The notes below the pieces were generated by a model. The model did no database searches and had not been told where the DNA came from. It saw only the letters and a program-made list of their open reading frames with translations. A program made the translations under genes and the position numbers. From IMG/VR virus record IMGVR_UViG_3300013132_000021: a stretch of DNA of 64,000 nucleotides; one strand, given 5' to 3'. The stretch is from a virus. The stretch's first letter is position 1, and each line of letters begins with the position of its first letter. Of this stretch, positions 26,047-46,689 are shown one piece after another.

Positions 26047-26664
26047 TTATTTTTGAATACTTCCAAAGGTAAAGTGCTGAGTATGTGTAAAGTTCACAAA
26101 ATTTGCAGATAAAATTATTCTATCTTCAGTACTGGTACTTTTTTCGGATTTATGCATCAACCATCCCGGAAAAAACAAAACATCTCCTTGTTGTGCCGGA
26201 ACTGAATAGTATTCTTGGAGATTAGAAACTTCATGTAAATTTTTAAAATTATAGTGGGGGTCTTGAAATTGTGTAAAGCCTGATGCATGCGGCAGTGAAA
26301 TATAAGCTACACAACTTAACACACTGAATCCGTGATTATGTGGTATTGTTTCTCCAGTTTTACCGTGACGATTAATCCAACTATTGCCAACATAAAACTG
26401 ATTGTTAGTGTCGTGTTTCCATTCGCAAATTATAAGTTTGCTTTTTTCTTCTAACCATAAAAAAAAATCTAAAAAATCCTTATGTTTATGTGGAGCGTTA
26501 TTTTGATTTGATACTGTGCTTTGAGCATCACCTATCTCTAAGTTAGTGACAGAGTTGTTGGCAGTCTGCAGAATTTCGTAAGCGGCTGCAAGATGCCTGT
26601 CTGTAAAATCAAAATGATCTCGAAAAATTACTGGCGGAAAGGAAGATATTGATTTAAGACTCAT
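26047..26664 (-). CDS. putative 2OG-Fe(II) oxygenase (TIGR02466-like)
   Basis: SWIN, HNH, LFFPGWLMH, RIILSAN. Confidence 0.85.
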   Translation of the reverse strand: MSLKSISSFPPVIFRDHFDFTDRHLAAAYEILQTANNSVTNLEIGDAQSTVSNQNNAPHKHKDFLDFFLWLEEKSKLIICEWKHDTNNQFYVGNSWINRHGKTGETIPHNHGFSVLSCVAYISLPHASGFTQFQDPHYNFKNLHEVSNLQEYYSVPAQQGDVLFFPGWLMHKSEKSTSTEDRIILSANFVNFTHTQHFTFGSIQK

Positions 26665-27251
26665 ATGTGTAATTGTGTCAATGGCAGACTGTTAATTTTT
26701 CCTTTAACGAAAGTATTGAAGCTTAGAGTAATTCTAGGTTCACTTCCGTAATAGGGTTCTACTAAATGTTCTATATTAGAAGGAAAAATTATAATGTTGC
26801 CAGCAGTTGATTGAAAAGTCCAACTTTTTGCATTATATATTGATGCATCAATTACCTGAAATTCTAAAGTATCATACTGGCTGGTTATTAACTTTAAATG
26901 TCCTGAACTGGCATCACCGGATAATGTTACTACTCCTGATAATATTGAATTTGGGTGCCAGTGCCTATGATGGCTTTGACCTGTTTCAGTTTTGTTTAGC
27001 CATGATTCTGTAATGTAAATTTCAGTGTCTGTAGATACTTGCATAACACCGTAAAAATAATCAGCAATTTTATTTCTTATCTCGTCTAGCATATTGTTGA
27101 AAGGCGCTGTGCTCAAAATATTTTGGCTTTCACTAATCCAGTTTTGATAGTTTCTTGCCCACTTTACATATGACAAGTCGACGTCTACACTTGTTATTTT
27201 AGATGTCAATATAGGTTTTGAAAAGAGTGGTATTAGTTCGTCATGATTCAT
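26661..27251 (-). CDS. putative 2OG-Fe(II) oxygenase (TIGR02466-like)
   Basis: ESWLN, HWHPNS.LSGV, IIFPSNIEHLV, RITLSFN. Confidence 0.85.
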   Translation of the reverse strand: MNHDELIPLFSKPILTSKITSVDVDLSYVKWARNYQNWISESQNILSTAPFNNMLDEIRNKIADYFYGVMQVSTDTEIYITESWLNKTETGQSHHRHWHPNSILSGVVTLSGDASSGHLKLITSQYDTLEFQVIDASIYNAKSWTFQSTAGNIIIFPSNIEHLVEPYYGSEPRITLSFNTFVKGKINSLPLTQLHI

Positions 27252-27307
27252 TTTAAGGCACCAAGTAATATGATATATAGTATTATCGAACAACGTAAGT
27301 GGAATTT

Positions 27308-27877
27308 ATGAAAATACAAAAAGACATTGCAACTTGGGATAATTTAGTAGATGCAGCCACCTGTAATGACATTATAGCAAGATATCATGCTTTAGAAACA
27401 TTGCAATTATCGTTTCCTCGATTCGAATCGCCTGGACACATTAAACAAGATAGAGCTGTATTTGTACTATCAGACGATTCCATGCGCTTGACTCCGGACC
27501 TTACAGTATTACATCCGTTTTTAAAAAAGTTTTGGGTCTGTTGGGAGTCATATCTTAGACATTATAGTGTATTAGCCGAAACTGGAAAACATCATGTGCG
27601 TTCTATGAAAATACAAAAAACATTGCCCGGCGAAGGATATCACATCTGGCATTTCGAATCGGATGGCTTAGAAAGATGTTCTCGAGTGGCGGCCTGGTCT
27701 TTGTACCTAAACGCAGTAGACGAGGGAGGAGAAACTGAATTCTTGTATCAAAGCATACGGATTCCTGCTACGATTGGTACATTAGCCATATGGCCGGCCA
27801 CCTACACTCATGTTCATAGGGGAAATCCTCCACTGTCAGGCGAAAAATATCTATTAACAGGATGGATTGAATGGTAA
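27308..27877 (+). CDS. 2OG-Fe(II) oxygenase, prolyl-4-hydroxylase-like
   Basis: GYHIWHFE, LYLNAVDEGGETEF, IWPA.YTH.HRGNPP..G.KY..TGW. Confidence 0.88.
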   Translation: MKIQKDIATWDNLVDAATCNDIIARYHALETLQLSFPRFESPGHIKQDRAVFVLSDDSMRLTPDLTVLHPFLKKFWVCWESYLRHYSVLAETGKHHVRSMKIQKTLPGEGYHIWHFESDGLERCSRVAAWSLYLNAVDEGGETEFLYQSIRIPATIGTLAIWPATYTHVHRGNPPLSGEKYLLTGWIEW

Positions 27878-28480
27878 ATGGAAGTCATTAAACTATTTCC
27901 CGTTGAATTTTTTAGGTTTACCACGCAGCAATTTCAACATTCAGAAATTGTTGACCACATTCAGTCGTTAAACATTTCTCCAAAGGTCAGCAGCAATCTC
28001 AGTTTTCAAATTTCATTGCATCGAGATGAAAAACTTTCAGAACTATTCAATTGGTTTCATGTATGCTTGGAACAACTAAGAGTTTCACAAAAATACGATT
28101 GCGATAGATTTACTATCAGCTCCAGTTGGTATAATCAAAGTTTGAAAAATCAAGGCATGCATCAAACATATCATAAACACACCAACAGTTTTTTCAGTGG
28201 AATCTATTACATGTCTGCAGGGGCTCCTACCATATTCGAAGATCCTGTAATACCAAGAAGTATGACACAGCTAGAAGTTTTAAGAAAAGATTATTTACCT
28301 GTCGAAAAAACCATGGCAGTTCCAGGCAGTTTAATTATTTTTCCCAGTTATGTATTTCATTATTCTCCGCCCCATGTGGACGATTTTGATAGGCATGTTA
28401 TTAGTTTTAATGTGTTGCCTACAGGTAAAATCAATACCGGTGCAGGCTCAGACGCAGCTATAATTTTAGGACTAACATGA
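27878..28480 (+). CDS. putative 2OG-Fe(II) oxygenase (TIGR02466-like)
   Basis: SSWYN, HKHTNSFFSGIYY, IIFPSYVFH, RHVISFN. Confidence 0.85.
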   Translation: MEVIKLFPVEFFRFTTQQFQHSEIVDHIQSLNISPKVSSNLSFQISLHRDEKLSELFNWFHVCLEQLRVSQKYDCDRFTISSSWYNQSLKNQGMHQTYHKHTNSFFSGIYYMSAGAPTIFEDPVIPRSMTQLEVLRKDYLPVEKTMAVPGSLIIFPSYVFHYSPPHVDDFDRHVISFNVLPTGKINTGAGSDAAIILGLT

Positions 28481-29943
28481 TACGATCGCTTGGAATATTG
28501 GGAGCAGGAAATGCAGGACTAATATCAGCGTTAATGCTTAGAGCATGTTTCACTGAATTACCAATTACTGTGATTAAATCTAATAAGATTGGTGCAATTG
28601 GTGTGGGCGAAGGGTCAAACGAACACTGGGACGATTTGTCAAAAATCACAAACATATCAGTTAATGATATAATTGTGAATGCAGGAGCAACATTCAAGCA
28701 CGGTATAAAGTTTGTGAATTGGAAAAATGGTAATGATATATTTTATCATAGCCTTCCTGAACATTTTGTTTCTCAAGATTCTTATACTGGCTTACCGTTC
28801 ACATTAATGAATTTTGTAGCAAATAATGTAGACCCAGAAAAAATTGTTTTTGATCTTGCTATCCAAGGTAAGATCGCCGGGCCGTTGGGAGCAGGGGTAG
28901 GCCAATTTCATTTTGATACGTTTAAGCTAAATTCTTTTTTAGAAAAATTATGTATAGACCGCAACATAAAAATTGTATTAGATACAGTTGTTGAAGTTAA
29001 ATTATCTGAGCAAGGGTTTGTTCAAACATTGATAGGTGAAAATCAGAATCATCAATTTGAATTTTATATTGACACAACAGGATTTGAAAGAGTCATTCAT
29101 AAATCTTTAGGAAGCAAGTGGGAATCTTATCAAAAATATCTTCCTACAAATTCAGCAATAGCATTTCCTTCTCCTCTAGATAACAAAATAAGCACATTTA
29201 CAACTGCTACCGCTAGGCAGCACGGGTGGAGTTGGCAGGCACCGGTACAGGGAAGATACGGAAACGGCTATGTGTTTAATAAAAATTTTGCTGATATTAA
29301 CATGGTTATTGCTGAGCTTCAAGTCGAATACAAAGATGAAATTAAAATAGCGAAGGTGATCGATTTCACTCCTGGAAAAATAGATAAATTTTGGATAAAA
29401 AATTGTGTAGCAGTCGGGCTGTCTGGAAGTTTTATCGAACCGCTAGAAGCCAGCAGTATAGGTGCTACTATAGAACAAATAAAATGTCTAGCTAGTTCAC
29501 TTATTTGTTGGTCTGATCAAGATAACTTTATAGAAAAAAAATATAATAAAACTTTTGATCGTGTTTATCAAAATATCCTAGACTTTGTGCAGCTACATTA
29601 TCTTGGGCAACGAACAGACACAGAATTTTGGCGTTGGTGCAAAAACCACATGATCCTTACAGACTTTAACAGAGAGACCGTTGATTATTTCAAGGATAAC
29701 TTTGTAAGCTGGAATTTTTTTCATGAAAATAATTACGAATTGTTCGATGAGTTAGACTGGATACAGGTCATGCACGGGTTAGGATTATTTAATATTACAA
29801 AGATTAAAGAAAAATACTTGTCCGATTTTCGAGTCTGGCAAGCAGTCACTGAAAACGAACTAAGTAGAGTACCATCAGAGAAAAATTGGGAATTTCTCTC
29901 TCATGAAAAAACTATAGAACTTATCAAAGAACAATATAAATGA
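28477..29943 (+). CDS. flavin-dependent halogenase (tryptophan halogenase family) 1
   Basis: GAGNAG, GVGEG, ATFKHGIKF (catalytic Lys), WSWQAP, FIEPLEASS. Confidence 0.9.
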   Translation: MIRSLGILGAGNAGLISALMLRACFTELPITVIKSNKIGAIGVGEGSNEHWDDLSKITNISVNDIIVNAGATFKHGIKFVNWKNGNDIFYHSLPEHFVSQDSYTGLPFTLMNFVANNVDPEKIVFDLAIQGKIAGPLGAGVGQFHFDTFKLNSFLEKLCIDRNIKIVLDTVVEVKLSEQGFVQTLIGENQNHQFEFYIDTTGFERVIHKSLGSKWESYQKYLPTNSAIAFPSPLDNKISTFTTATARQHGWSWQAPVQGRYGNGYVFNKNFADINMVIAELQVEYKDEIKIAKVIDFTPGKIDKFWIKNCVAVGLSGSFIEPLEASSIGATIEQIKCLASSLICWSDQDNFIEKKYNKTFDRVYQNILDFVQLHYLGQRTDTEFWRWCKNHMILTDFNRETVDYFKDNFVSWNFFHENNYELFDELDWIQVMHGLGLFNITKIKEKYLSDFRVWQAVTENELSRVPSEKNWEFLSHEKTIELIKEQYK

Positions 29944-31436
29944 TTAACTCATTGGGCATTTTAGGAGGCGGAACTAGCGGATTAATTGCAGCTTTGATGT
30001 TTCGTGCAGCATATCCTAAATTAAAAATTACATTGATCGAATCCTCGCAGATTGGAATTATCGGTGTTGGCGAAGGCACTACAGAACATTGGAGGTTTTT
30101 TGTAGAATATTGTGATATTCCTCTTCATGAATTGTTTGAACACACAGGTGCTACATTTAAAATTGGAATAAAATTTACTAATTGGCACGGCGATGACACA
30201 CATTATTTTCACAGTCTTTTACAAGACTTTGGTGGTATAGATCCGAAAAATGACATTCCGTACACATGGTTCAGGATGATAGGAGAAAACTGGGATCCTT
30301 TACATACACTAGGGGATGGCAGTCAAAAATCAAGACACTATGAGCCGTTACATGATAATATTAATCAGTTTCATTTTGATACTATGAAATTGAATAATTT
30401 TCTGCATCGCAAGTGTATTGAGAGAAATATCACAATAGTTGATAATATAATCAAGGAAGTAAAAGTAGATCAACAAGGTTATGTAAGCGAGATTATCGAC
30501 GAAAATAATCAAAGCTACGTTTATGATTTTTACATCGATTGCTCTGGTTTTAAAAGAGTCATAGGTCATCACTTAGGAATGAAATGGGTTGATAAAAGCG
30601 AATTTCTTCCTATGAATAGTGCCATAGCATTTCAAACTGCATACCAAGAAAATATTCCGTCGTATACAGAAGCAACAGCATTGAGTAGCGGTTGGAGTTG
30701 GAGAATACCTACACAGGATCGTTTCGGTAATGGATATGTTTATTGTGACGGTTTCATCAAAGACGACGAAGCTGTGTCAGAAATTAAAGCACATTACAAA
30801 ACACAGTTATCAATCGACGATATCACGGTAGGAAAAAAATTTAAATTTGCAGCAGGTCATGTTGATAAATTCTGGACTAAAAATTGCGCAGTCATTGGTT
30901 TGAGTAGTATATTTGTTGAACCATTAGAGGCTAGCAGTATTGGTACCACTATACAACAATGTGCGAATCTTGTATCTGCAATGACACACTTTGCAAAGGG
31001 CGAAGAAAGCACCGCTAGACAATATAATAAACTTATAACAAAAGTTGCAGAAAATATTGTCGACTTTATACAATTACATTATTTTACTCAACGATCCGAT
31101 ACTGATTTTTGGAGTTGGTGCAAAAATTCACTTAAGATCACTGATTTCAATCAAGAAAATTTAGAATACTTTAAAAAAAATAATGTTGATAATAATTTTT
31201 TTAGAGAACCTCTGTTATTGTTTAAGACCTTAAACTTCATGCAGGTAATGCATGGTCTTAGGCTAATTGATCAAAAACATTCTTTAAAAGTCTACAACGA
31301 TCACCTAAGAGAAAATTATGATGAAAAAATTGAAAAGATGCTGATTCTTAATGCAGATTTAACAGAATCTATTCCGCATCGTCAGTGTCTTGAAATACTT
31401 AAAAACAGAGTTCCTTTGATTAAATATAAATTTTAA
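29940..31436 (+). CDS. flavin-dependent halogenase (tryptophan halogenase family) 2
   Basis: GGGTSG, GVGEGT, ATFKIGIKF, WSWRIP, FVEPLEASS. Confidence 0.92.
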   Translation: MINSLGILGGGTSGLIAALMFRAAYPKLKITLIESSQIGIIGVGEGTTEHWRFFVEYCDIPLHELFEHTGATFKIGIKFTNWHGDDTHYFHSLLQDFGGIDPKNDIPYTWFRMIGENWDPLHTLGDGSQKSRHYEPLHDNINQFHFDTMKLNNFLHRKCIERNITIVDNIIKEVKVDQQGYVSEIIDENNQSYVYDFYIDCSGFKRVIGHHLGMKWVDKSEFLPMNSAIAFQTAYQENIPSYTEATALSSGWSWRIPTQDRFGNGYVYCDGFIKDDEAVSEIKAHYKTQLSIDDITVGKKFKFAAGHVDKFWTKNCAVIGLSSIFVEPLEASSIGTTIQQCANLVSAMTHFAKGEESTARQYNKLITKVAENIVDFIQLHYFTQRSDTDFWSWCKNSLKITDFNQENLEYFKKNNVDNNFFREPLLLFKTLNFMQVMHGLRLIDQKHSLKVYNDHLRENYDEKIEKMLILNADLTESIPHRQCLEILKNRVPLIKYKF

Positions 31437-31445
31437 TAAACAAAT

Positions 31446-32999
31446 ATGAAAAAAATAGTCATATTAGGCGGCGGAACGGCCGGCTGGGTCACAGCACTAT
31501 ATATTAAAAGATACTGGCCTGATCTCGCTATAACTGTAATCGAGGATCCCAATCGTCCACCAATTATAGCAGGAGAAAGTGGGAATACATTGTTCACTGA
31601 TTTTTTAAATAGAATAAATGTAAACAAAGATGATTTTATCAAAGCAACTAATGCAACTCCCAAGCTCGGTGGAAGATTTGTAGATTGGAACGGGGTCGGT
31701 ACAGAATTCCTTCACGTTATGCAGACAGATCACTCACCATGGCTAGACAACTGGGATAGATTTTTAGATAACGCTCCAACTCTCGACATCGCATTAAATA
31801 GAGTTTTTTCTGAAAAAATTCGCAGTATATATCTAAAGACAGTATTAGCAAACGATGTTCCATTGCATCACATGTTTCATTCTGGAGAACTTATAAGACA
31901 AAACAAAGTTCCGGTTGGACGGTATAGTCCTTTGCCTTGTAATCCTATGTGGCATTTCGATAGTCGAGCTGCGGCATTATGGTTCAAGGATCTCGGTCTA
32001 GAACGTGATTTAGAAGTTGTATTAGGTGAATACATAGATGCAGAATGCGGTATAGACGGCGATGTAACTCAAATTATTTTAAAAGATGGCCGACGTATCC
32101 AAGGAGATTGGTTTTTTGATTGCTCTGGATTTTCTAGATTGCTTATTAATAAACTTTTAAAAGTTGAACAAATCGATCTCAGCGAAACTTTTCCGGCAAA
32201 CAGTGTTGTAGCATGGTGGTCTGATTCTTCTCCTTCGTTGACCACTAACGCATTCGCTATGCCGCATGGTTGGTCATGGAATATTAATCTAAAACATCGA
32301 TCGGGTAATGGATATATTTTTGATCCAGATTGTATCACATTAGATCGAGCCATAGACGAAGCGTCTGTAAGATTTAATAAAAAAATAGAGCCGGTCGCTA
32401 ATTTCACGTATACCCCCGGTATATCTAAATTACATTGGAAAAACAATGTGATAGCAGTTGGGCTAAGTTCGGGATTTCTTGAACCATTAGAAGCTAATGG
32501 TGTAGCAGTAATAATAGAAGCAATGTATTCCTTATTAGACTACTGGGATCCGGATAAATCAGTAAAAGCGCAACATAATAAAACTGAAAAATTTAATGAT
32601 AGAATGTTTACTTTGTATAATGATATCAAAGATTTTCTAGCGTTGCATTATCGAGGAAAACGAAACGACAGCGAATATTGGAAAAAATTAAAAAATCCTC
32701 AAACTATTCCAGATTCTTTGAAAGAGAAACTTCAGCGATGGGAAGATTTTTATTATCGAGACGGAGTAGAGCCACAAAGTCTAGGATATTCCGAAGCTGC
32801 ATGGTTAATGGTGTTACAAGGGCTTGATTATTTTGATGTAAAAATACTGCAACAACGGCCGTTCGTAAAAATACATGAAACTTCGGGATTAGAAATTATA
32901 AATAAGAGTAGAGAATATTATAAACAATTGGTTGATCCATTTTGTACCTTAGACGAATGGATGCTTACTCCCAGTTGCACTACAAACAAGGAGAACTAA
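31446..32999 (+). CDS. flavin-dependent halogenase (tryptophan halogenase family) 3
   Basis: GGGTAG, AGES, ATPKLGGRF, WSWNIN, FLEPLEANG. Confidence 0.9.
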   Translation: MKKIVILGGGTAGWVTALYIKRYWPDLAITVIEDPNRPPIIAGESGNTLFTDFLNRINVNKDDFIKATNATPKLGGRFVDWNGVGTEFLHVMQTDHSPWLDNWDRFLDNAPTLDIALNRVFSEKIRSIYLKTVLANDVPLHHMFHSGELIRQNKVPVGRYSPLPCNPMWHFDSRAAALWFKDLGLERDLEVVLGEYIDAECGIDGDVTQIILKDGRRIQGDWFFDCSGFSRLLINKLLKVEQIDLSETFPANSVVAWWSDSSPSLTTNAFAMPHGWSWNINLKHRSGNGYIFDPDCITLDRAIDEASVRFNKKIEPVANFTYTPGISKLHWKNNVIAVGLSSGFLEPLEANGVAVIIEAMYSLLDYWDPDKSVKAQHNKTEKFNDRMFTLYNDIKDFLALHYRGKRNDSEYWKKLKNPQTIPDSLKEKLQRWEDFYYRDGVEPQSLGYSEAAWLMVLQGLDYFDVKILQQRPFVKIHETSGLEIINKSREYYKQLVDPFCTLDEWMLTPSCTTNKEN

Positions 33000-36759: not shown

Positions 36760-36768
36760 GATTTTCTC

Positions 36769-37425: not shown

Positions 37426-37428
37426 GAT

Positions 37429-39561: not shown

Positions 39562-40157
39562 TGTATATTAAATGTCATTACATATCTAGATTCTGAACTC
39601 AAATTGGGTTGTACATAATGTTTGAGATATCCAGGAAAAATTAAAACATCATTAGTGGCAACTGAAATTTCTTGATACAGATGTTCTTCAGGAAAAATAG
39701 GCCAAGAAGATTTATGATATTCTAAAGGATCTTTAAAAACTATGTTTCCTGAATTTGGTGGGCAATTTAAATATGCTGATACCACAAAGGTAGTGTTGTT
39801 ATGATTATGTTCTATAGTTTCTCCTGAGAAGTCGTGGCGATTGACCCATGAGTTAGTGATCTTATAATCAGCAGATTGAAAATTTAAATCTTTTGCTAGT
39901 CCGAGTGTGATTATATCTATCCAATCAATAAAATGTTGTAACTCAGACCAGTGGTGTGGTTGTAGATCAGAATCGCAGCTAACAGTTGACCATGCAGATT
40001 TTTTCTCTAATAGACTATTAGTCTTGCTATGTAGAAACAGATCATCTATTTTTGGTTTTAGGGAGTCCCAATTAAAAGAATATTGATACTTCCATATAGT
40101 CGGCCGAAATAACTGTATTTCTCCGTATTGATCTTGATTAGGCAGATGATTCATCAC
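39558..40157 (-). CDS. putative 2OG-Fe(II) oxygenase (TIGR02466-like)
   Basis: NSWVN, EHNH, SAYL, SGNIVF.DP, IFPGYLKHYV, RYVMTFN. Confidence 0.85.
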   Translation of the reverse strand: MMNHLPNQDQYGEIQLFRPTIWKYQYSFNWDSLKPKIDDLFLHSKTNSLLEKKSAWSTVSCDSDLQPHHWSELQHFIDWIDIITLGLAKDLNFQSADYKITNSWVNRHDFSGETIEHNHNNTTFVVSAYLNCPPNSGNIVFKDPLEYHKSSWPIFPEEHLYQEISVATNDVLIFPGYLKHYVQPNLSSESRYVMTFNIQ

Positions 40158-40377
40158 AGATTTCTACAGCTAGTTTCAAACCCATTAGACATCCCTCCAT
40201 TTTTAATGAATCACTACTTAATTCTTGTCTCTTAGCAAAATCAATAGACGTAATGCCGTATGGGTTTAATTTAACGTTGGCGAAATCAGATTCTAATTGT
40301 TGCAACTCTTTTTGAATTTTTTCCCTTTCTATCTCAAGTGCAACCATTTTATCTAATAGAGTTTGTTTTACTGACAT
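40138..40377 (-). CDS. hypothetical coiled-coil protein
   Basis: 79 aa heptad-rich ORF in operon. Confidence 0.65.
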   Translation of the reverse strand: MSVKQTLLDKMVALEIEREKIQKELQQLESDFANVKLNPYGITSIDFAKRQELSSDSLKMEGCLMGLKLAVEICDESSA

Positions 40378-40380: not shown

Positions 40381-41181
40381 TTATTTCCTTTTGGTGTAAT
40401 TTTTTAAGATCTTAGTTAATCTATTTAATCTTGAAGATAACGAATCAGTCTTCAGAATGGCACAATTAGAGGCATAAACCCAAGCTCTTTCGCGAGTCCA
40501 GTCTGCAGAATCGGCTTCATCAATAGTAACGTCATAGCTTCCCACAGACAGATATTCCCTCTTCATAGGAATAATATGGCATAGAGGTGTTCCGGCTTTT
40601 ACCAAAGTTTCTCCGTGTTTTTTTTTCCAAAACAATTGAATGTTTAAGTTGTATCCATATCTACTATCTAAAATTCCAGTAGCTGAAAAAAATCTATCTT
40701 CGTTGTTATAATGCACCGGCATCATTACAAATACAATATCATCTGATGCCTCAACCCTCCAAGGAGTTTCTATTTTTACGATAGAACTTAATATTTCTGA
40801 AGGATCGTCTAACAAGCACATAGTTTGATTCGGTCCGTGTACCGCCGATACATACCGTGCCACATCGAGCGGATATTCTGGTCCGATTTTGAATCTCCAG
40901 GGTTCCCGCCAGTCATAAGATATACCAGATTCGTGTACTTTGATTATAAAATCAGCAGGAGCCGGTACTATCCACCCAGCCGAGGTGAGTTTAAGAATCC
41001 CCGGACAGTTTTTGGTTGACATCACATTCTGATCTTCTGGCCAAGATCTATATTTTCGACTCAGCTGTTTAGATGGATATATGGGATATAGAGTTGTGAC
41101 TCCTGGCTCCATCGAGTAAAATCGTACCCAGGGTTTTTTCTTCCAAATTTTACCAAATAGTTTTTTACACAGAATGCTCAT
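40381..41181 (-). CDS. hypothetical protein, possibly dUTPase-like beta-clip fold
   Basis: TKNCPGI, GWIVPAPADF, KIETPW, GILD, VKAGTPLCHIIP; start at MSILC after GGAG. Confidence 0.55.
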   Translation of the reverse strand: MSILCKKLFGKIWKKKPWVRFYSMEPGVTTLYPIYPSKQLSRKYRSWPEDQNVMSTKNCPGILKLTSAGWIVPAPADFIIKVHESGISYDWREPWRFKIGPEYPLDVARYVSAVHGPNQTMCLLDDPSEILSSIVKIETPWRVEASDDIVFVMMPVHYNNEDRFFSATGILDSRYGYNLNIQLFWKKKHGETLVKAGTPLCHIIPMKREYLSVGSYDVTIDEADSADWTRERAWVYASNCAILKTDSLSSRLNRLTKILKNYTKRK

Positions 41182-42772
41182 CGACTCCGCCATATATATT
41201 TTGTTTTAGAAATTCATAATGGGAAGGGCAACTTTTTACATAATCAATTACATAATCTTTATATTGTTCGTGATTACGTCTTGTAACATTTAATTCTTCG
41301 GTTTTTAAACCAGTCCAATCTTTATAGTACACAAGAGGTTTAAGAGATTCTGGTCGAATACCTTGACCGGCTGCTATGTACATGGCTCCTTGCATATCGG
41401 GAGGGTATACTTGATTAGCTGTTACGTTGCCTATAAGGTTAGCAAATCCACCATGTGTGGCTATAAAATCGTTCATCATATCTGGAGCATATTCGTTAAT
41501 CTGAGTGCACCAACGCCAATATGGGGTATCTGTTCGCATACTAAATGCATAATGCATGGCTACAAAATCTTTGAAGGTTGTTACTTCTCTGTCAACTGCT
41601 AAATTAAATCCGTCTTTTTCGATTCTAGAAACATACCCGTTTCTTCTGTTTAAAATTTCTATCAGCTTTATGATATTTTCGTGTGTGGTGAGTAGTCCAG
41701 TAGATTCTAAAGGTTCGACAAAACCATAACTGAGTCCTATACCTACGACATTTTCTACCCAAGCTCTACGACGTTTGCCGTGTGAGATCTTCACTTGAAA
41801 CATTTCTGCTTGTTCTGCGATTTCTGGACTGTGCTTTACAGCTAAGTGAGTACGAAATTCTTTTTGTGCATCTTCTGGAGTAACAAATCTTGTTGAAAAA
41901 ACATACCCAGTACCAATTCTATTCCATAGTGGGATATTCCAAACCCAACCGTTATCTAGTGCATGACAATCTGTAACGTTGTGCATTTCACGTTCTCTAT
42001 CGATGTATGGAATTCTACATGCCCATGCCATATCATTAGCAAGGCTGTCTTTAAATGAAACAAATTGTGAGCCCATCCAATTTTCTAATAGAATAGATTT
42101 AAATCCTGTACAATCAATCCACAGATCTGATTTAAGAATCTGCCCAGTCTCTGTAAATATCTCTGTGATGTTACCAGATCTGTCTTTTTTATAACTATGA
42201 ATATCGCCCTGTAGATGTTTGACACCATTCGGGATAGCTATGTTATCTCGTAGATAATTTCCAAAAAGTCCTGCATCCATGTGATATGCAGTATCATATT
42301 TGAAATTAAAATTTCGCAAGACGCCTTGTTCATTTTTTGACTGTTTATTGTATTTGGCCAACATGGTATTTCCTGTACAGAAAAATTCTGCAAATGATTC
42401 AGGACCAAATTCTTTAGGAAACATTGCTGCTAGCTCTACCCAAGACTGAATACCGTTGGGCTTGTCTGTGAGATCAAATCCGGGAGCAAACGGATATTCA
42501 AATGATTCTCCTTGTCCCTGTCTAAAATTGGTAAATCTTATTGAATTTTTATAAGTAGCATTACACGCTGCCATCCAGTCTTCGTCTTTCAAATCTAAAA
42601 TATGTAAAAATTTATTGATATGGCCTAGTGTGCTTTCGCCCACCCCAACCGTGCCTATCTTTTGAGATTCGATTAGAGTAATTTCTAAAAAGGGGCATAG
42701 TTTTGATAAGGCAGCAGCGGTCATCCATCCTGAAGATCCTCCGCCGATTATGGTAATTTTTTTTATATGCAT
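41165..42772 (-). CDS. flavin-dependent halogenase (tryptophan halogenase family) 4
   Basis: GGGSSG, GVGEST, ATYKNSIRF, WVWNIP, FVEPLESTG. Confidence 0.93.
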   Translation of the reverse strand: MHIKKITIIGGGSSGWMTAAALSKLCPFLEITLIESQKIGTVGVGESTLGHINKFLHILDLKDEDWMAACNATYKNSIRFTNFRQGQGESFEYPFAPGFDLTDKPNGIQSWVELAAMFPKEFGPESFAEFFCTGNTMLAKYNKQSKNEQGVLRNFNFKYDTAYHMDAGLFGNYLRDNIAIPNGVKHLQGDIHSYKKDRSGNITEIFTETGQILKSDLWIDCTGFKSILLENWMGSQFVSFKDSLANDMAWACRIPYIDREREMHNVTDCHALDNGWVWNIPLWNRIGTGYVFSTRFVTPEDAQKEFRTHLAVKHSPEIAEQAEMFQVKISHGKRRRAWVENVVGIGLSYGFVEPLESTGLLTTHENIIKLIEILNRRNGYVSRIEKDGFNLAVDREVTTFKDFVAMHYAFSMRTDTPYWRWCTQINEYAPDMMNDFIATHGGFANLIGNVTANQVYPPDMQGAMYIAAGQGIRPESLKPLVYYKDWTGLKTEELNVTRRNHEQYKDYVIDYVKSCPSHYEFLKQNIYGGVDEHSV

Positions 42773-42917
42773 ACATTTTTCCTTTGGTGATTTATTTATT
42801 GATATTAAATCATAGAAATATTATTTTGATATATCGTATATCTGTATCGTTTTTGGATTTCTATACTGCTCGTAGGGATATTTTCCGTTCCATTTACTAC
42901 ATCTCGAAGAGATTATA

Positions 42918-43511
42918 TTATAATTTTTCATTTAGATTAAATGCCAAGCTAATTCTAGGTTCAGTGTTATTATGGGGATATACTCCGTGTCTTAGATTGC
43001 TCCTAAATACAACAAGTTGACCTTCTAAAGGTTGATAGATAGCGGCCGTACAATTTAAATCTGTGTCCTTGTCTACTCGGATAGGTCTCATTTCAAATAT
43101 TGAATTGGGATTTTCAAAAACCAGTCGACCGCTTTTTTCAGGTACAGAAACATAATATATCGCGCTGAAATCAAATCCTGGATGTATGTGCGGTTCTTGG
43201 AAATCTCCCTTTTCATAATAATTCATCCAGCACTGCTGTATCTGATAGTTTTTGATGCTTCCGTAGCTCCTTGAAAAATCATCGACTTCCAGTTCCACCC
43301 AATTAGAAAAATCACACAGTATTGGGGAATCTTTAAGAAGAGGATTCTGGAATCCCTTCTGTATCGATTTGGTCCAAAATGGCCAACCTTCGATCTCGCC
43401 GGACGACGAGTAGTCCTTTTTTGGATATAATTTTAACAATTCTTTTTTTAAAGAATCATGATACGGATAAAAAGAATGGTAGATTCCTATAGGAAACCAA
43501 TAAGTTATCAT
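42918..43511 (-). CDS. putative 2OG-Fe(II) oxygenase (TIGR02466-like)
   Basis: CWMN, QEPHIH, FSAIYY, VFRSNLRHGV, RISLAFN. Confidence 0.87.
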   Translation of the reverse strand: MITYWFPIGIYHSFYPYHDSLKKELLKLYPKKDYSSSGEIEGWPFWTKSIQKGFQNPLLKDSPILCDFSNWVELEVDDFSRSYGSIKNYQIQQCWMNYYEKGDFQEPHIHPGFDFSAIYYVSVPEKSGRLVFENPNSIFEMRPIRVDKDTDLNCTAAIYQPLEGQLVVFRSNLRHGVYPHNNTEPRISLAFNLNEKL

Positions 43512-43559: not shown

Positions 43560-43583
43560 CCTTACAACCTCGATTCGTTGAAT

Positions 43584-44084
43584 CTAAGCGATGTATCCCT
43601 TCCATCCTGGATATCTTGTCCACGACGGAATTTCAACCGTAGATGGTCTGCATGGTTTATCCTCTGAAGGTTCAGAACTAAGAGCCTGTGCCTGCAAATA
43701 TTCTTCTGTTAACGTAGCCGGGTCTGGATCTGCCGGCGGACGTTCAATCATGGTTTTAACCGTAGCTATGTGATTGAACCACTCTCCGTTGGTGTCTAAA
43801 CTTCCATTTTGTCGAATGTCGTGATAGATTAAATCTAATTGTTCTTCAATCCGTCCATAAGCAACTTTTCTAGCAACTTTTTTATCGGTATAAGGAGCGT
43901 CTCTTTCCACCCATATCATTTGTTGTCGACTGGGACTCCATTCCAATGTCCATTCTCTTTGAATATTATCTGGTGCATCTACCCAAGCGATAGTAGCACC
44001 TGCGCCTTCATAAATTAAAAAATCTTCGCCGGGATCTACAATATCTTGTACATATCCTTGATAGGTCACTATTACTTTTTTCAT
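43584..44084 (-). CDS. hypothetical protein, possible tail fibre assembly chaperone
   Basis: Directly follows the fibre paralogs; R..AY..IEEQLD.IYHD pattern resembles phage fibre-associated small proteins. Confidence 0.55.
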   Translation of the reverse strand: MKKVIVTYQGYVQDIVDPGEDFLIYEGAGATIAWVDAPDNIQREWTLEWSPSRQQMIWVERDAPYTDKKVARKVAYGRIEEQLDLIYHDIRQNGSLDTNGEWFNHIATVKTMIERPPADPDPATLTEEYLQAQALSSEPSEDKPCRPSTVEIPSWTRYPGWKGYIA

Positions 44085-44099: not shown

Positions 44100-44954
44100 T
44101 TATCTAAATTCTTCAACCACCACAATTCCTGGACGTCCATCTGATCCTCGATGTCCACTGAAATATCCACCAGTGCCTCCGGTTCCCGGAGCTGCGTGTC
44201 CTTGATGATTGTGTGTGAAATTTCCACCGTTTGGGTGTCCCGACGGAGCAGCCCCTCCAAAATGTGTAGCGCCGCCCATACCAAAACTATGGTGATGATC
44301 GCCACCCGATCCTTGGTGAAGATTTAGATTACCACCTGATCCCGTTCCACTCACACCGCCGCAGTGTTGTGCTTGTCTATTGGCACCATGTCCACCACCT
44401 GCGCTCATGAATGGACCAAAACTGGTGGTCCCCCCGTCGCCGCCAGCACTTGAGTAATATGTTCCACCACCACCACCACCGATGGTTACGCTAACACTGC
44501 TGGTTCCTGTGACATCGATAATTCTTTCTGAATAGCCACCAGCGCCACCACTTTCACCGTGACCACCTCCACCACCACCACCTGCTACTAATTTAACTCT
44601 GATAAATCTAACTCCGCTGGGTCTATTCCAGGTTGAGCTGCCAGTAAAAACCTGCATGCCGCTGAATCCGATTGATCTATATTCTAAGGCATTATTAGCT
44701 GAATTGGTTATTAGTACAGTATTTGCTGCACCGATTGTGGTTAGGCCGGTGCCGCCTTGAGGTACACCAACAGAACCTGTGGTAATTGCAGATGTTAGAT
44801 TAACTGAACCTGTGGTCAACTTTGCAGATGTTACAGCATCATTGGCTATATCTGAAGTTGGAAGTGTTCTACTAGCAATATTGCTATTTGTTAGTGCATT
44901 GTTAACAATAGAATTCTGTGTTAAATTTTTCAAAGTTTGATAATTAAACGGCAT
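44100..44954 (-). CDS. Gly/His-rich tail fibre/adhesin-like protein, paralog A
   Basis: MPFNYQ start, pentapeptide-like shaft, FTGSSTW.RPSGV..I.V..V.GGGGG glycine-rich domain with numerous His. Confidence 0.75.
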   Translation of the reverse strand: MPFNYQTLKNLTQNSIVNNALTNSNIASRTLPTSDIANDAVTSAKLTTGSVNLTSAITTGSVGVPQGGTGLTTIGAANTVLITNSANNALEYRSIGFSGMQVFTGSSTWNRPSGVRFIRVKLVAGGGGGGGHGESGGAGGYSERIIDVTGTSSVSVTIGGGGGGTYYSSAGGDGGTTSFGPFMSAGGGHGANRQAQHCGGVSGTGSGGNLNLHQGSGGDHHHSFGMGGATHFGGAAPSGHPNGGNFTHNHQGHAAPGTGGTGGYFSGHRGSDGRPGIVVVEEFR

Positions 44955-44970
44955 CTTGTTATCCTATTTG

Positions 44971-45828
44971 TTAATAATATTCATAGACTACTACTATACC
45001 CGGTCTACCATCAGCACCTCTATGTCCACTGAAATAACCGCTGGTACCACCTGTACCTGGAGCAGAATGTCCTTGATGATTATGTGCGAAATTACCACCG
45101 TTTGGGTGTCCTGCTGGACCTGCTCCGCCAAAATATGTTGATCCTCCCATACCGGTGGATCGCTGTTCGTGACCACCACCTGATCCTTGGTGAAGATTTA
45201 TATCACCGCCTGAGCCTCCTCCACTTAGGCCACCGTTGTGTTGGTTGTGTCTATTGGCACCATGTCCGCCACCTGCGCTCAGGAATGGACCAAAACTGGT
45301 AGCCCCCCCGTTGCCGCCAGCACTTGAGTAATATGTTCCACCACCACCACCACCGACGGTTATGCTAACACTGCTGGTTCCTGTGACATCGATAATTCTT
45401 TCTGAGTAGCCTCCGGCCGCACCACTTTCCCCGTGTCCGCTGCCACCTCCACCACCTGCTACTAATATAACATGTATGAATCTTACTCCTGATGGGCGAC
45501 TCCAGGTTGAGCTGCCGGTAAAAACCTGCATACTCCTGATACCGCATTCTCTGAATGTATAGGCATTGTTTGCGTCATTAACACCTAGGATTCGATTTGC
45601 ACCTGCAAAGCCTGTTAGACCGGTTCCTCCAGACCCAGCTGGAATTGAGCCTGTTACCTTTGCACCTGTTAAATTTACTGATGCATTGGCTAGTTCGCTA
45701 GCTGTAATTGTAGAGTTAGCTAAATTTGTACTGGTAACTGCATCGTTAGCAAAATCTGCACCCGTAAGAGTGTTTGCTACAAAAGAACTAGAATTTAAAT
45801 TCCTTAAAGATTGATAGTTAAAAGGCAT
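44971..45828 (-). CDS. Gly/His-rich tail fibre/adhesin-like protein, paralog B
   Basis: Same architecture as paralog A. Confidence 0.75.
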   Translation of the reverse strand: MPFNYQSLRNLNSSSFVANTLTGADFANDAVTSTNLANSTITASELANASVNLTGAKVTGSIPAGSGGTGLTGFAGANRILGVNDANNAYTFRECGIRSMQVFTGSSTWSRPSGVRFIHVILVAGGGGGSGHGESGAAGGYSERIIDVTGTSSVSITVGGGGGGTYYSSAGGNGGATSFGPFLSAGGGHGANRHNQHNGGLSGGGSGGDINLHQGSGGGHEQRSTGMGGSTYFGGAGPAGHPNGGNFAHNHQGHSAPGTGGTSGYFSGHRGADGRPGIVVVYEYY

Positions 45829-45837
45829 CGATTTCTC

Positions 45838-46689
45838 TTAATAAAAGTTAGTTACAATAATTATGCCAGGTCGCCCGTCAGTTCCTCTATAACTGTGGAA
45901 ATGAGCTCCGCCGCCACCTGCTCCAAGAGCAGAATGTCCGTTATGATTGTGACCAAATTGTCCACCGTTGGGATAATTGCTAGCAGTTCCGCCACCAAAG
46001 AAACTTTCCGCCACAGACGATGAATCTCTGGCATGATGACTGTAGCCACCGCCTGTATGAATATTAAGATTACCACCCGATCCCGCTCCACTCACACCGC
46101 CGCAGTGTTGTGCTTGTCTATTGGCACCATGTCCACCGCCGGCACTTATGTATGGACCGAAACTAGAAGAGTTTCCGTTACCTGCTGCTCCAGAATAATA
46201 TGTTCCACCACCACCACCACCGATGGTTACGCCCACACTTGAAATTCCTGTAACATCTAAAAATCTTTCAGCATAGCCACCTGCTGCTCCGCCCTCTCCG
46301 TGTCCGCTGCCACCACCACCTGCGCCATTTACCTGAACTTTTATATATTTTACTCCGGCTGGGCGAGTCCAGGTTGAGCTGCCGGTATACACATTTATAC
46401 TGGCTATTCCGTGAGGTTGTTGACTTAAATTTGTTCCGTCACTTTGAAGAGCTCTTCCTGCTCCAGAAAAACCAGCTACTCCTAGGCCGCCACGCGATGC
46501 AGGTAATGTTCCTGTTACTGTTGCGCTACTTAAATTTACAGCACCTGTGCCTAATTTAGCTTCAGTTACACTGGCTAATACTAGTCTATCACCGGCAACG
46601 GTGGTGTTTTGTAATTTACCTGCCGTAATAGTACCATCAGTAACTGATTGTGAAGTATATTGTTTTAGTGTTTGATAGTTGAATGGCAT
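45838..46689 (-). CDS. Gly/His-rich tail fibre/adhesin-like protein, paralog C
   Basis: Same architecture as paralogs A and B. Confidence 0.75.
   Translation of the reverse strand: MPFNYQTLKQYTSQSVTDGTITAGKLQNTTVAGDRLVLASVTEAKLGTGAVNLSSATVTGTLPASRGGLGVAGFSGAGRALQSDGTNLSQQPHGIASINVYTGSSTWTRPAGVKYIKVQVNGAGGGGSGHGEGGAAGGYAERFLDVTGISSVGVTIGGGGGGTYYSGAAGNGNSSSFGPYISAGGGHGANRQAQHCGGVSGAGSGGNLNIHTGGGYSHHARDSSSVAESFFGGGTASNYPNGGQFGHNHNGHSALGAGGGGAHFHSYRGTDGRPGIIIVTNFY

What the first reader, a model, noticed from the sequence alone, without database searches (positions are those of the whole stretch)
26047..46689. Battery of 16 Fe/2OG oxygenases and 4 halogenases embedded in the tail module: candidate virion post-translational tailoring system
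Seen: between two tail-fibre loci lies ~17.5 kb of mostly translationally coupled genes. They comprise 16 2OG-Fe(II)/JmjC oxygenases from at least five subfamilies and 4 flavin-dependent halogenases. Several sub-operons start at TAAATA late-promoter motifs (e.g. ~31422, ~42792, ~43516). Established: these enzyme families hydroxylate or halogenate Pro, His, Trp, Tyr, Asp/Asn, Lys or Arg residues, or small molecules; scattered homologs are known in cyanophages (e.g. halogenase VirX1) with unknown natural substrates. Inference: probable late expression, the position between structural genes and the absence of any NRPS/PKS or nucleotide-modification enzymes in the island point to a RiPP-like machinery decorating virion proteins. 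The His/Gly-rich fibres next door are the likeliest targets, possibly to alter receptor binding or stability.
Basis: partly seen in the sequence, partly recalled or inferred. Interest (0 to 1): 0.9.

Follow-up and report, generated by a model that had tools for sequence, protein, structure and literature searches.

The report
Tail-fibre module carrying halogenases and oxygenases
A large uncultured phage carries four halogenase and sixteen oxygenase genes as one late-promoter unit with three tail-fibre tip proteins, which makes those fibre proteins a concrete candidate for the unknown natural target of these viral enzymes.

Summary
Between fibre genes lie 4 flavin-dependent halogenases and 16 Fe/2OG-type oxygenases: 12 pass Pfam cut-offs, 3 are weak hits, and 1 rests on homology alone.

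The kind of cluster is already known. Genes 33174-44084 are collinear with Syn9 gp40-gp54, which Iyer et al. 2010 described and assigned to secondary-metabolite synthesis. Halogenase 41165-42772 is an orthologue of VirX1.

New here:
- **Fibre proteins.** The three Gly-rich proteins are virion fibre proteins by fold (cyanophage Pam3 fibre).
- **Constant core.** Gly-rich fibre genes, a chaperone-like gene and a VirX1-type halogenase stay together. 59 of 65 informative viral loci found through the halogenase show this, and about 41 of 43-45 found through the fibre domain. The oxygenase count varies from 0 to 12.
- **Two lineages.** The module occurs in T4-like cyanophages and in this PA5oct-like phage lineage, whose related contigs reach about 370-380 kb.
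- **Late promoter.** A T4 late-promoter motif sits at conserved positions at the head of the enzyme operon.

This supports a fibre-linked, probably late function. It makes modification of fibre proteins the leading reading (about 0.45) but proves no modification. Enzyme number does not co-vary with fibre paralog number, and no RiPP parts were found. I score it as a new variant of a known kind, interest about 0.7.

The parts
44100..46689 (-). Three paralogous fibre proteins of 283-285 aa (44100-44954, 44971-45828, 45838-46689): a fibre-repeat N-terminus plus a C-terminal Gly_rich_2 domain
   Evidence: Pfam PF21722. The C-domain model has pLDDT 93 and its best PDB match is the cyanophage Pam3 fibre 7YPX (TMq 0.72), followed by the Bxb1 tail tip and the ALK/LTK glycine-rich domain. 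The paralogs are 52-69% identical to each other.
43584..44084 (-). Syn9 gp40-like protein (166 aa), probably a tail-fibre assembly chaperone. It is the first gene of the enzyme operon in most relatives.
   Evidence: phrog_1787. hhalign gives 95.6% probability to a Phage_tail_APC-annotated protein that follows another Gly_rich_2 fibre, over the N-terminal 41 columns only. It always sits beside the Gly-rich genes and the halogenase.
42918..43511 (-). PF13759 oxygenase, an extra copy found only in the closest relatives
   Evidence: Pfam E 3e-24, HxH...H...R motif, present in 7 loci.
42793..42800 (-). AATAAATA, a T4-type late-promoter-like motif 28 nt upstream of the VirX1-type halogenase
   Evidence: NATAAATA or TAAATA occurs at -28 to -34 in 22 of 23 distinct orthologous upstream regions.
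41165..42772 (-). VirX1-orthologous flavin-dependent halogenase (535 aa)
   Evidence: Full-length match to PDB 6QGM VirX1 at E 4e-197 with the catalytic-Lys motif ATYKNSIRF identical. It is 62% identical to the S-CREM1 halogenase and 53% to Syn9/Syn10.
40381..41193 (-). Syn9 gp43-like protein (270 aa) of unknown function, overlapping the halogenase stop
   Evidence: phrog_7084. It is 45-48% identical to Syn9 and S-CREM1. The ESM Atlas cluster is named 'Gp43 family', with DUF6065 in 17% of members. Iyer et al. 2010 call it dUTPase-fold.
40138..40377 (-). Syn9 gp44-like small protein (79 aa) of unknown function, which always follows the gp43-like gene
   Evidence: 53-55% identical to Syn9 and S-CREM1. 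The order g20>g19s>g18 is conserved.
33174..40157 (-). Eleven tandem Fe/2OG-type oxygenases:
- PF13759: 39558-40157, 38132-38830
- gp46-like: 38758-39561
- JmjC_2: 37429-38163
- DUF6445: 36769-37425, 35486-36187, 34968-35486
- P4H-like PF13640: 36184-36759, 34360-34971
- gp47-like: 33803-34360
- gp54-like: 33174-33833
   Evidence: Pfam. Collinear with Syn9 gp45-gp54 and S-CREM1 ORF72-80. The JmjC member's nearest solved relatives are NO66, YcfD and MINA53.
33001..33177 (+). Uncalled 58-aa ORF after the third halogenase, with an AAGGAG ribosome-binding site. The window's only exact TATAAATA lies 104 nt upstream.
   Evidence: A 41% identical ORF sits at the same place in relative G001 and shares a conserved C-terminal GVGR-VAGP-LV--PN motif.
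27299..32999 (+). Second enzyme block on the other strand: PF13640 oxygenase 27299-27877, PF13759 oxygenase 27878-28480, and three halogenases (28477-29943, 29940-31436, 31446-32999)
   Evidence: Pfam. The halogenases are only 25-29% identical to the VirX1 type. Relatives carry 2-4 halogenases in this block. No conserved late promoter was found at its head.
26047..27293 (-). Two PF13759 oxygenases, co-directional with the baseplate/fibre connector gene downstream
   Evidence: Pfam E 2e-16 and 7e-19. Absent from relatives G001 and G002.
23932..25968 (-). Left flank: a 678-aa protein matching the PHROG family 'baseplate wedge tail fiber protein connector', with GATAAATA at -32
   Evidence: phrog_677 at E 1.5e-45; motif.
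46696..60769 (-). Right flank: small fibre-like ORFs 46696-47166 and 47179-47499, and giant ORFs 47522-55060 (2512 aa) and 55103-60769 (1888 aa) that I take to be fibre proteins
   Evidence: The two small ORFs hit PHROG tail and tail-fibre families. NATAAATA lies at -26/-27 of 47522-55060 and 47179-47499. This gene order is conserved in 42 loci. The two giant ORFs were not scanned against family libraries, so their fibre assignment rests on size, position and this conserved order.

Best explanation
The island is the enzyme half of a mobile tail-fibre module that is probably transcribed late.

**Constant core (shown).** It has two to four fibre proteins ending in a Gly_rich_2 domain, the fold seen in the solved Pam3 fibre. 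A small gp40-like protein follows, which I infer to be a fibre chaperone. Next to them sits a VirX1-type flavin-dependent halogenase.

**Variable shell (shown).** The shell holds a gp43-like protein, extra halogenases and 0-16 Fe/2OG oxygenases of P4H-like, JmjC/ROX-like, TIGR02466-like and DUF6445 types.

**Mechanism (inferred).** The enzymes act in the infected cell during virion assembly. They use host FADH2, halide, O2, Fe(II) and 2-oxoglutarate. They halogenate aromatic side chains (Trp, Tyr, possibly His). They hydroxylate Pro, His, Arg, Asn or Asp side chains of the co-encoded Gly-rich fibre-tip proteins, and perhaps of other fibre proteins. The modifications would change stability or receptor binding. 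They would be an optional decoration, not a requirement of the fold.

**Status.** Gene content, orthology, fold, linkage, the sharing of the module by two lineages and the promoter motif are shown. The substrate and the chemistry on it are inferred.
For: 1. **Linkage from the halogenase side.** Of 65 IMG/VR loci with at least 3 kb upstream of a VirX1-type halogenase, 59 have a Gly_rich_2 gene and a g23-like gene next to it. That includes 12 of 12 in the 45-50% identity class.
2. **Linkage from the fibre side.** About 41 of 43-45 informative loci, found with a differently built Gly_rich_2 protein family, carry the halogenase.
3. **Linkage survives rearrangement.** Observed orders are GLY-CHAP-HAL, GLY-CHAP-P4H-HAL, GLY-HAL-CHAP, and co-directional or convergent halogenase blocks. 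In one case the Gly_rich_2 domain is fused to a 1258-aa fibre. In the minimal forms the halogenase, with or without a P4H-like gene, is the only enzyme among structural genes.
4. **Module shared by two lineages.**
   - The window's tail sheath matches PA5oct-like jumbo phages over 80% of its length, but cyanophage sheaths only over the last 16-24%.
   - The Gly-rich domain, g23, halogenase, gp43-like and oxygenases are 45-62% identical to Syn9 and S-CREM1 and collinear with them.
   - The neighbouring ORFs g27, g28 and the giant ORFs have no match in those loci.
5. **Late promoter.** A late-promoter motif sits at conserved positions at the operon head, with 0 of 20 to 0 of 37 at internal genes. 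The contig carries a gp55-like sigma factor.
6. **Fibre fold.** The Gly-rich proteins have a virion fibre fold.
7. **Enzyme families.** The JmjC member's nearest solved relatives are the protein hydroxylases NO66, YcfD and MINA53. PF13640 is the prolyl-4-hydroxylase-type family, and the Gly-rich domain has conserved X-Pro-Gly triplets (APG, RPG). VirX1 is a trimer with a large open active site that accepts bulky substrates (PMC8407142).
Against: - No modified residue has been observed in any phage with this module.
- Flavin-dependent halogenases are known on free molecules, carrier-bound substrates and RiPP peptides. To my knowledge none is known to act on a folded structural protein. VirX1 works in vitro on small aromatics.
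- The same fibre fold exists without these enzymes (Pam3 and Bxb1; loci L189 and L195).
- Oxygenase number (0-12) is unrelated to the number of Gly-rich paralogs, which is about 3.
- More distant cyanophage halogenases sit away from fibres: S-B64 in the replication module and S-MbCM6 beside psbA.
- Six of the 65 loci have the halogenase beside other fibre-like genes with no detectable Gly_rich_2 domain.
- PF13759 and DUF6445 have no known substrate. According to Iyer et al. 2010, their bacterial relatives lie in TonB-receptor/SapC/halogenase clusters.
- No flavin reductase was seen.
- Most sampled loci may belong to a few related aquatic myovirus lineages, so the counts are not independent events.
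Confidence: 0.45

Rival explanations
1. The enzymes form a small-molecule or short-peptide pathway, as Iyer et al. 2010 proposed. They successively halogenate and hydroxylate an amino-acid-derived metabolite made in the infected cell. Linkage to the fibre genes is incidental, or the product is used by the fibre as a ligand or cofactor.
For: - Tandem distant dioxygenases plus Trp-halogenase-type enzymes are typical of secondary-metabolite clusters, and bacterial relatives of gp52 and gp54 occur with NRPS, sulfotransferases and TonB receptors (PMC2938197).
- VirX1 halogenates many small aromatics in vitro.
- Two conserved small ORFs (40138-40377 and 33001-33177) could be peptides.
Against: - The island has no NRPS, PKS, ATP-grasp, transporter or recognisable precursor peptide.
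- The minimal forms of the module hold only a halogenase, with or without a P4H-like gene, among structural genes.
- The gp44-like small protein has no Trp and only one Tyr and one Pro.
- This reading gives no reason for a late promoter or for the module moving together with its fibre genes.
Confidence: 0.2
2. The enzymes are host-directed auxiliary genes. They would hydroxylate host proteins such as ribosomal proteins or translation factors, or nucleic acids. Alternatively they would consume 2-oxoglutarate to shift the host's nitrogen-status signalling, as Sullivan et al. 2010 proposed.
For: - The JmjC member belongs to the ribosomal-oxygenase clade.
- Sullivan et al. 2010 link cyanophage 2OG oxygenases to 2OG/NtcA signalling (PMC3037559).
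- 2OG oxygenase genes are scattered through other cyanophage genomes, 24 of them in S-SCSM1 (PMC9602691).
- Some halogenases lie among metabolic genes (S-MbCM6).
Against: - Host take-over functions are expected early or in the middle of infection, but the operon head carries a late-type motif.
- The tight and repeatedly rearranged linkage to fibre genes is not explained.
- The window's phage has no psbA on 130 kb and is PA5oct-like, so cyanobacterial nitrogen signalling may not apply.
- 2OG consumption does not need seven enzyme families or any halogenase.
Confidence: 0.15
3. There is no joint function. The site downstream of the fibre genes tolerates insertions, and unrelated enzyme genes have piled up there and ride on read-through late transcription. 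Adjacency reflects ancestry and the rigid gene order of myovirus structural modules.
For: - Copy number is very variable (0-12 oxygenases in the sampled loci, 16 in the window, and 1-5 halogenases).
- G+C of the enzyme block is 0.33-0.37 against 0.42-0.47 in the flanks.
- Hyperplastic regions are known in cyanomyoviruses (PMC3037559).
- Many sampled loci are relatives.
Against: - The same gene families recur in the same order in lineages whose sheath proteins barely align.
- The halogenase keeps its place through inversions and order swaps, even between the fibre genes and the chaperone-like gene (L135, L140, L155).
- Genes are translationally coupled.
- A random dump would hold other kinds of genes as well.
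Confidence: 0.15

Closest known systems
Syn9 gp41-gp54 dioxygenase/halogenase cluster (Iyer, Abhiman, de Souza Aravind 2010, NAR; PMC2938197)
   Same: The gene families are the same and in nearly the same order: gp40-like, VirX1-type halogenase, gp43-like, gp44-like, then PF13759, gp46-like, JmjC, P4H-like, DUF6445 and gp54-like oxygenases. Identities are 35-53%.
   Different: The window has 16 oxygenases against 10 and 4 halogenases against 2. It also has a second enzyme block on the opposite strand and three DUF6445 copies. It sits in a PA5oct-like phage lineage with contigs up to about 370-380 kb, not a T4-like cyanophage. The published reading was secondary-metabolite synthesis. The link to Gly-rich fibre genes, the chaperone-like gene and the late promoter was not part of that description.
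VirX1, the iodinating flavin-dependent halogenase of cyanophage Syn10 (PDB 6QGM)
   Same: 41165-42772 aligns over its full length at E 4e-197 and 53% identity, with the same GxGxxG, catalytic-Lys and WxWxIP motifs.
   Different: Halide preference and substrate are untested here. The other three halogenases are only 25-29% identical to this type and are closer to PrnA-type or uncharacterised enzymes.
Cyanophage Pam3 fibre and mycobacteriophage Bxb1 tail-tip proteins (PDB 7YPX, 9D93), and the ALK/LTK glycine-rich domain
   Same: The C-terminal 190 residues of the three paralogs are predicted to have the same glycine-rich fold (TMq 0.72 to Pam3, probability 1.0).
   Different: The halogenase search of phage records returned no Pam3 or Bxb1 record among its 65 hits. 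The window's paralogs carry lineage-specific His-rich stretches that are not conserved across the wider family.
Peptide- and protein-modifying systems: RiPP halogenases, collagen and PBCV-1 prolyl-4-hydroxylases, ribosomal oxygenases YcfD/NO66/MINA53
   Same: The enzyme families are the same or related (PF04820, PF13640, JmjC_2). The idea of tailoring a gene-encoded polypeptide is the same.
   Different: No leader/core precursor and no recognition element were found. The JmjC protein (244 aa) lacks the C-terminal domains of the ribosomal oxygenases. The proposed substrate is a folded virion protein, for which I know no precedent among flavin-dependent halogenases.

Membership tests
Flavin-dependent (Trp-type) halogenase, Pfam PF04820 | Full-length match to the family profile above the curated cut-off | tested here: met
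   All four ORFs score 282-368 bits against a cut-off of 21.
Flavin-dependent (Trp-type) halogenase, Pfam PF04820 | N-terminal GxGxxG flavin-binding motif and the catalytic Lys (K79 of PrnA and VirX1) | tested here: met
   GxGxxG lies at residues 8-15 in all four. The Lys column is conserved in the four-way alignment and identical to VirX1 in 41165-42772.
Flavin-dependent (Trp-type) halogenase, Pfam PF04820 | WxWxIP motif | tested here: inconclusive
   The motif is exact in two (WVWNIP, WSWRIP) and variant in two (WSWQAP, WSWNIN).
Flavin-dependent (Trp-type) halogenase, Pfam PF04820 | Halogenating activity with a partner flavin reductase | not testable with these tools
   No flavin reductase was recognised in the island. 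The host enzyme may serve.
Fe(II)/2-oxoglutarate oxygenase superfamily | Profile match to a 2OG-oxygenase, JmjC or cupin family | tested here: met
   Twelve of 16 pass Pfam cut-offs, three are weak (22.2, 23.4 and 14.6 bits) and one (38758-39561) has none.
Fe(II)/2-oxoglutarate oxygenase superfamily | Metal-binding HxD/E...H triad (or a variant) and a basic 2OG-binding residue | tested here: met
   An HxD/E motif lies near residues 90-137 in the PF13640, DUF6445, JmjC, gp46-like and gp54-like members. The distal His and the basic residue were not mapped for these. The six PF13759 members have invariant HxH...H...R. The gp47-like member has HNH...H...R by eye.
Ribosomal-oxygenase (ROX: YcfD/NO66/MINA53) clade of JmjC | JmjC core most similar to ROX enzymes, plus the C-terminal dimerisation and winged-helix domains | tested here: not met
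   The core is most similar to NO66, YcfD and MINA53 (E 7e-5 to 6e-3). The protein is only 244 aa and has no C-terminal domains, so it is ROX-like in its core and not a full member.
RiPP biosynthetic cluster | A precursor peptide with leader and core, and a recognition element or leader peptidase | tested here: not met
   No such gene was recognised. The small ORFs (79 aa and 58 aa) have no family match and no obvious core.
Syn9-type dioxygenase/halogenase cluster (Iyer et al. 2010) | Collinear array of VirX1-type halogenase, gp43-like protein, MINA-like JmjC and several distant 2OG dioxygenases | tested here: met
   tblastn maps 43584-33174 collinearly onto Syn9 gp40-gp54 and S-CREM1 ORF68-80 (annotations).
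T4-type late transcription unit | A TATAAATA-like -10 element upstream of the first gene, and a gp55-type sigma factor in the genome | tested here: met
   The motif lies at -28 of 41165-42772 and is conserved in 22 of 23 relatives. A gp55-like ORF lies on the same contig at E 5e-14. No transcript data exist.
Gly_rich_2 (PF21722) phage fibre domain | Profile match and the glycine-rich fold of a solved virion fibre | tested here: met
   Pfam scores are 41-57 bits against a cut-off of 24.3. The model has pLDDT 93 and matches the Pam3 fibre at TMq 0.72.

The most novel reading that the evidence does not exclude
Phage-encoded flavin-dependent halogenases and Fe/2OG oxygenases covalently halogenate and hydroxylate a folded tail-fibre tip domain during assembly. 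That would be the first enzymatic halogenation of a viral structural protein, carried on a module that moves between unrelated myovirus lineages together with its substrate. It would name the natural substrate of VirX1.
Probability: 0.35. Interest if true: 0.9.

Novelty: new variant of a known kind. Interest (0 to 1): 0.7.

Why it matters
- **An open question becomes testable.** The natural role of the cyanophage halogenase/dioxygenase clusters has been open since 2010, and VirX1 has no reported natural substrate in the papers I could read. This analysis names a concrete candidate substrate. That candidate is the Gly-rich fibre proteins encoded immediately upstream, which exist in cultured phages (Syn9, Syn10, S-CREM1, P-TIM40, S-RIM44). 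Virion mass spectrometry could settle it.
- **If true.** It would add halogenation and multi-site hydroxylation to the known ways phages alter receptor-binding proteins. It would extend flavin-dependent halogenases to protein substrates.
- **If false.** The module is still a well-delimited enzyme set that keeps company with fibre genes across lineages, which then needs another explanation.

Tried and rejected
- **Papers not held.** I could not read the Syn9 transcriptome paper (Doron et al. 2016) or the VirX1 paper (Gkotsi et al. 2019). The expression class of Syn9 gp40-gp54 is therefore unknown to me.
- **Promoter and terminator scan.** The generic sigma-70 and terminator scan gave counts no higher than shuffles and is uninformative.
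- **First fold attempt.** Folding a Gly-rich paralog with a 3-row alignment failed (pLDDT 34). The 73-row alignment worked.
- **Complex prediction.** VirX1-type halogenase with the Gly-rich domain gave no support. This is not evidence either way.
- **The look-up of sequencing runs.** No RNA holder was listed.
- **The search for homologous proteins.** It listed only close relatives of at least 57% identity, so it gave no independent contexts.
- **Short contigs.** Five contig look-ups for distant Gly_rich_2 proteins hit contigs too short to judge.
- **Chaperone-like gene as flavin reductase.** I considered this. It has no family hit, and its N-terminus resembles a fibre-chaperone-annotated protein instead.
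- **Co-variation.** Enzyme number does not co-vary with fibre paralog number.
- **Marine PTM paper.** The marine-phage proteomics/PTM paper PMC12014285 holds nothing on cyanophages or hydroxylation.

Full report
**1. What is there**

The window is part of a 129.8 kb linear IMG/VR contig that CheckV rates 36% complete. ORF listing and Pfam scans confirm the gene content.

- Four ORFs are Trp_halogenase-family proteins (282-368 bits).
- Twelve ORFs pass the cut-offs of 2OG-oxygenase-type families: PF13759 x6, PF13640 x2, DUF6445 x3 and JmjC_2 x1.
- Four more ORFs are oxygenase-like on weaker grounds:
  - 34360-34971 is 32% identical to a passing P4H-like paralog.
  - 33174-33833 is the Syn9 gp54 orthologue, with HxD and a weak 2OG-FeII_Oxy_2 hit.
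  - 33803-34360 is gp47-like, with HxH...H...R and PF13759 at E 0.045.
  - 38758-39561 is the gp46 orthologue, with an HMD motif and no Pfam hit.
- The six PF13759 proteins share invariant HxH...H...R instead of HxD.
- All four halogenases keep GxGxxG and the catalytic Lys column.

The enzyme block runs from 26047 to 43511 (17.5 kb), with most neighbouring genes overlapping or abutting. Its G+C is 0.33-0.37, against 0.42-0.47 in the flanks.

**2. It is a known kind of cluster**

The block 43584 down to 33174 on the minus strand maps gene by gene onto Syn9 gp40-gp54 and S-CREM1 ORF68-80, at 35-62% identity.

Iyer et al. 2010 described exactly this Syn9 array: ten tandem dioxygenases of at least five families including a MINA-like JmjC, two halogenases, and a gp43 with a dUTPase-like fold. 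They proposed secondary-metabolite synthesis. Sullivan et al. 2010 proposed a 2-oxoglutarate/NtcA role for cyanophage 2OG oxygenases. S-SCSM1 is reported to have 24 such genes.

Halogenase 41165-42772 is a full-length orthologue of VirX1 (PDB 6QGM, E 4e-197). VirX1 is a trimeric iodinase with a large open active site.

**3. The fibre side**

The three 283-285 aa paralogs at 44100-46689 carry the Pfam Gly_rich_2 domain. With a 73-row alignment the C-terminal 191 residues fold at pLDDT 93. The best structural match is the solved fibre of cyanophage Pam3 (TMq 0.72), followed by Bxb1 tail-tip proteins and the ALK/LTK glycine-rich domain. They are therefore virion fibre proteins by fold.

The domain family is large, with 1453 representative clusters, and the domain always lies at the C-terminus of proteins of 190-1258 aa.

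The gene after them, 43584-44084 (Syn9 gp40-like), has no family hit. Its N-terminus aligns at 95.6% hhalign probability with a protein annotated Phage_tail_APC that follows another Gly_rich_2 fibre. I read it as a fibre chaperone. This is an inference from 41 aligned columns and from position.

**4. Linkage is the main new result**

*Close relatives.* Forty-two IMG/VR loci found through the Gly-rich paralogs all have the same order: giant ORFs, two small fibre-like ORFs, three Gly-rich genes, chaperone-like gene, halogenase, gp43-like, gp44-like, then the oxygenases. These are close relatives and count as one lineage.

*Wider samples.*
- Contig look-ups for distant Gly_rich_2 proteins gave two long contexts with different fibre architecture.
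  - One has a 1258-aa fibre ending in the domain. The other has three Gly-rich genes next to Laminin_G and Peptidase_S74 genes.
  - Both have a g23-like gene, a conserved 411-424 aa unknown protein and a VirX1-type halogenase (43-47% identity) within 2-5 kb.
- A scan from the halogenase side returned 79 loci, out of at least 597 in the collection. Of the 65 with at least 3 kb upstream, 59 have Gly_rich_2 and g23-like genes beside the halogenase, including 12 of 12 at 45-50% identity. The six exceptions lie beside other fibre-like genes.
- A scan from the fibre side used a differently built family (Laminin_G-type N-terminus). It gave about 41 of 43-45 informative loci with the halogenase.

*Arrangements.* They differ widely: GLY-CHAP-HAL followed directly by a sheath-stabiliser gene, GLY-CHAP-P4H-HAL, GLY-HAL-CHAP, and co-directional or convergent blocks of up to four halogenases. 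The constant core is therefore fibre tip + chaperone-like + VirX1-type halogenase. The oxygenase battery is a variable shell of 0-12 genes in these loci and 16 in the window.

**5. The module occurs in two unrelated lineages**

- The window's 1168-aa tail sheath matches PA5oct-like Pseudomonas jumbo phages over 80% of its length at 40% identity. It matches cyanophage sheaths only over the last 16-24%.
- There is no psbA on the contig.
- Related contigs reach 370-380 kb.
- The Gly-rich domain, chaperone-like gene and enzymes are 45-62% identical to those of T4-like cyanophages and collinear with them. The adjacent ORFs 46696-47499 and the giant ORFs have no match in the Syn9 or S-CREM1 loci.

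The shared unit therefore begins at the Gly-rich genes and ends at the last oxygenase. This fits transfer of fibre tip and enzymes as one piece, which I infer. A formal tree test was not done.

**6. Timing**

TAAATA as a word is not enriched (37 occurrences; my estimate from composition is higher). Position is what counts.

- In 22 of 23 distinct upstream regions of the halogenase orthologue, NATAAATA (often the exact T4 consensus TATAAATA) or TAAATA lies 28-34 nt before the start. The same holds in 18 of 24 upstream regions of the chaperone-like gene.
- The motif also precedes fibre genes.
- It occurs in only 0-1 of 20-37 upstream regions of each of five internal genes.
- The same motif lies 30-35 nt before the gp40-like gene in Syn9, S-CREM1, P-TIM40 and S-RIM44.
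- The contig encodes a gp55-like late sigma factor.

Late transcription of the minus-strand operon is therefore well supported by sequence, but no RNA data were available. For the plus-strand block (27299-32999) I found no conserved promoter.

**7. What the enzymes suggest**

- The JmjC protein's nearest solved relatives are NO66, YcfD and MINA53. All three are protein His/Arg hydroxylases. It lacks their C-terminal domains.
- PF13640 is the prolyl-4-hydroxylase-type family. A P4H-like gene is the commonest companion of the halogenase in minimal modules.
- The Gly-rich domain keeps X-Pro-Gly triplets (APG, RPG), one invariant Trp, and lineage-specific His-rich stretches.
- PF13759 and DUF6445 have no characterised member.

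These points favour protein or peptide substrates but do not identify them.

**8. Weighing the readings**

- **Fibre-protein modification (0.45).** It explains the persistent linkage through rearrangement, the shared module boundary, the late motif and the enzyme families.
- **Points against it.**
  - No modification has been observed.
  - No flavin-dependent halogenase is known to act on a folded protein.
  - The same fold exists without the enzymes (Pam3, Bxb1, L189, L195).
  - Enzyme number does not co-vary with paralog number.
  - More distant cyanophage halogenases sit elsewhere in their genomes.
- **Metabolite pathway of Iyer et al. (0.2).**
- **Host-directed or 2OG role (0.15).**
- **Accumulation without joint function (0.15).**

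A complex prediction of the halogenase with the fibre domain gave no support, which is not evidence either way.

**9. Verdict**

The cluster type is known. The window shows an expanded variant in a new large-genome phage lineage. The comparative analysis adds a testable substrate hypothesis for VirX1-type enzymes in cultured cyanophages.

The scan had already noted this same stretch in overlapping windows of this genome (notes e1-5667377, e1-5667367, e1-5667359). Those are re-readings, not independent evidence.

Noticed in passing
whole window; own contig G000: The phage is not a typical T4-like cyanophage. Its 1168-aa tail sheath (14982-18488) is closest to PA5oct-like Pseudomonas jumbo phages. 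CheckV rates the 129.8 kb contig 36% complete, relatives reach 370-380 kb, and no psbA is on the contig. The host is unknown.
   Followed up: partly
33001-33177 (+): An uncalled 58-aa ORF with an AAGGAG ribosome-binding site lies after the third halogenase. The window's only exact TATAAATA is 104 nt upstream of it. A 41% identical ORF with the same C-terminal motif sits at the same place in relative G001 (L064:14233-14400). Function unknown.
   Followed up: partly
26000-44000: The enzyme block has clearly lower G+C (0.33-0.37) than the structural genes on both sides (0.42-0.47).
   Followed up: no
L068:12095-13369 and L072:12397-13632: A conserved 411-424 aa protein with no family match (47% identical between the two contigs) sits between the chaperone-like gene and the halogenase in two divergent modules. 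It has no counterpart in the window.
   Followed up: no
L001 (Syn9), L007 (P-TIM40), L008 (S-RIM44), L075 (S-WAM1): RefSeq product names for several oxygenases of this cluster look wrong: 'DNA endonuclease V', 'minor coat protein' and 'ferrochelatase' for Syn9 gp51/gp53, gp46/gp52 and gp54 and their orthologues. The Gly-rich fibre proteins are named 'tail fiber assembly'.
   Followed up: partly
47522-60769 (-): Two very large ORFs of 2512 and 1888 aa, which I take to be fibre proteins, lie directly upstream of the small fibre genes. The first has AATAAATA at -26. They were not analysed further.
   Followed up: no
40381-41193 (-): The ESM Atlas holds the gp43-like protein only from residue 58 on, so gene callers disagree on its start. 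The long form overlaps the halogenase stop by 29 nt and matches Syn9 gp43 from residue 16.
   Followed up: partly
L172, L180, L181, L183, L185, L154: Other viral contigs carry four tandem halogenases next to three Gly-rich fibre genes of unequal length (about 310, 500 and 320 aa). This is a further variant of the module.
   Followed up: no
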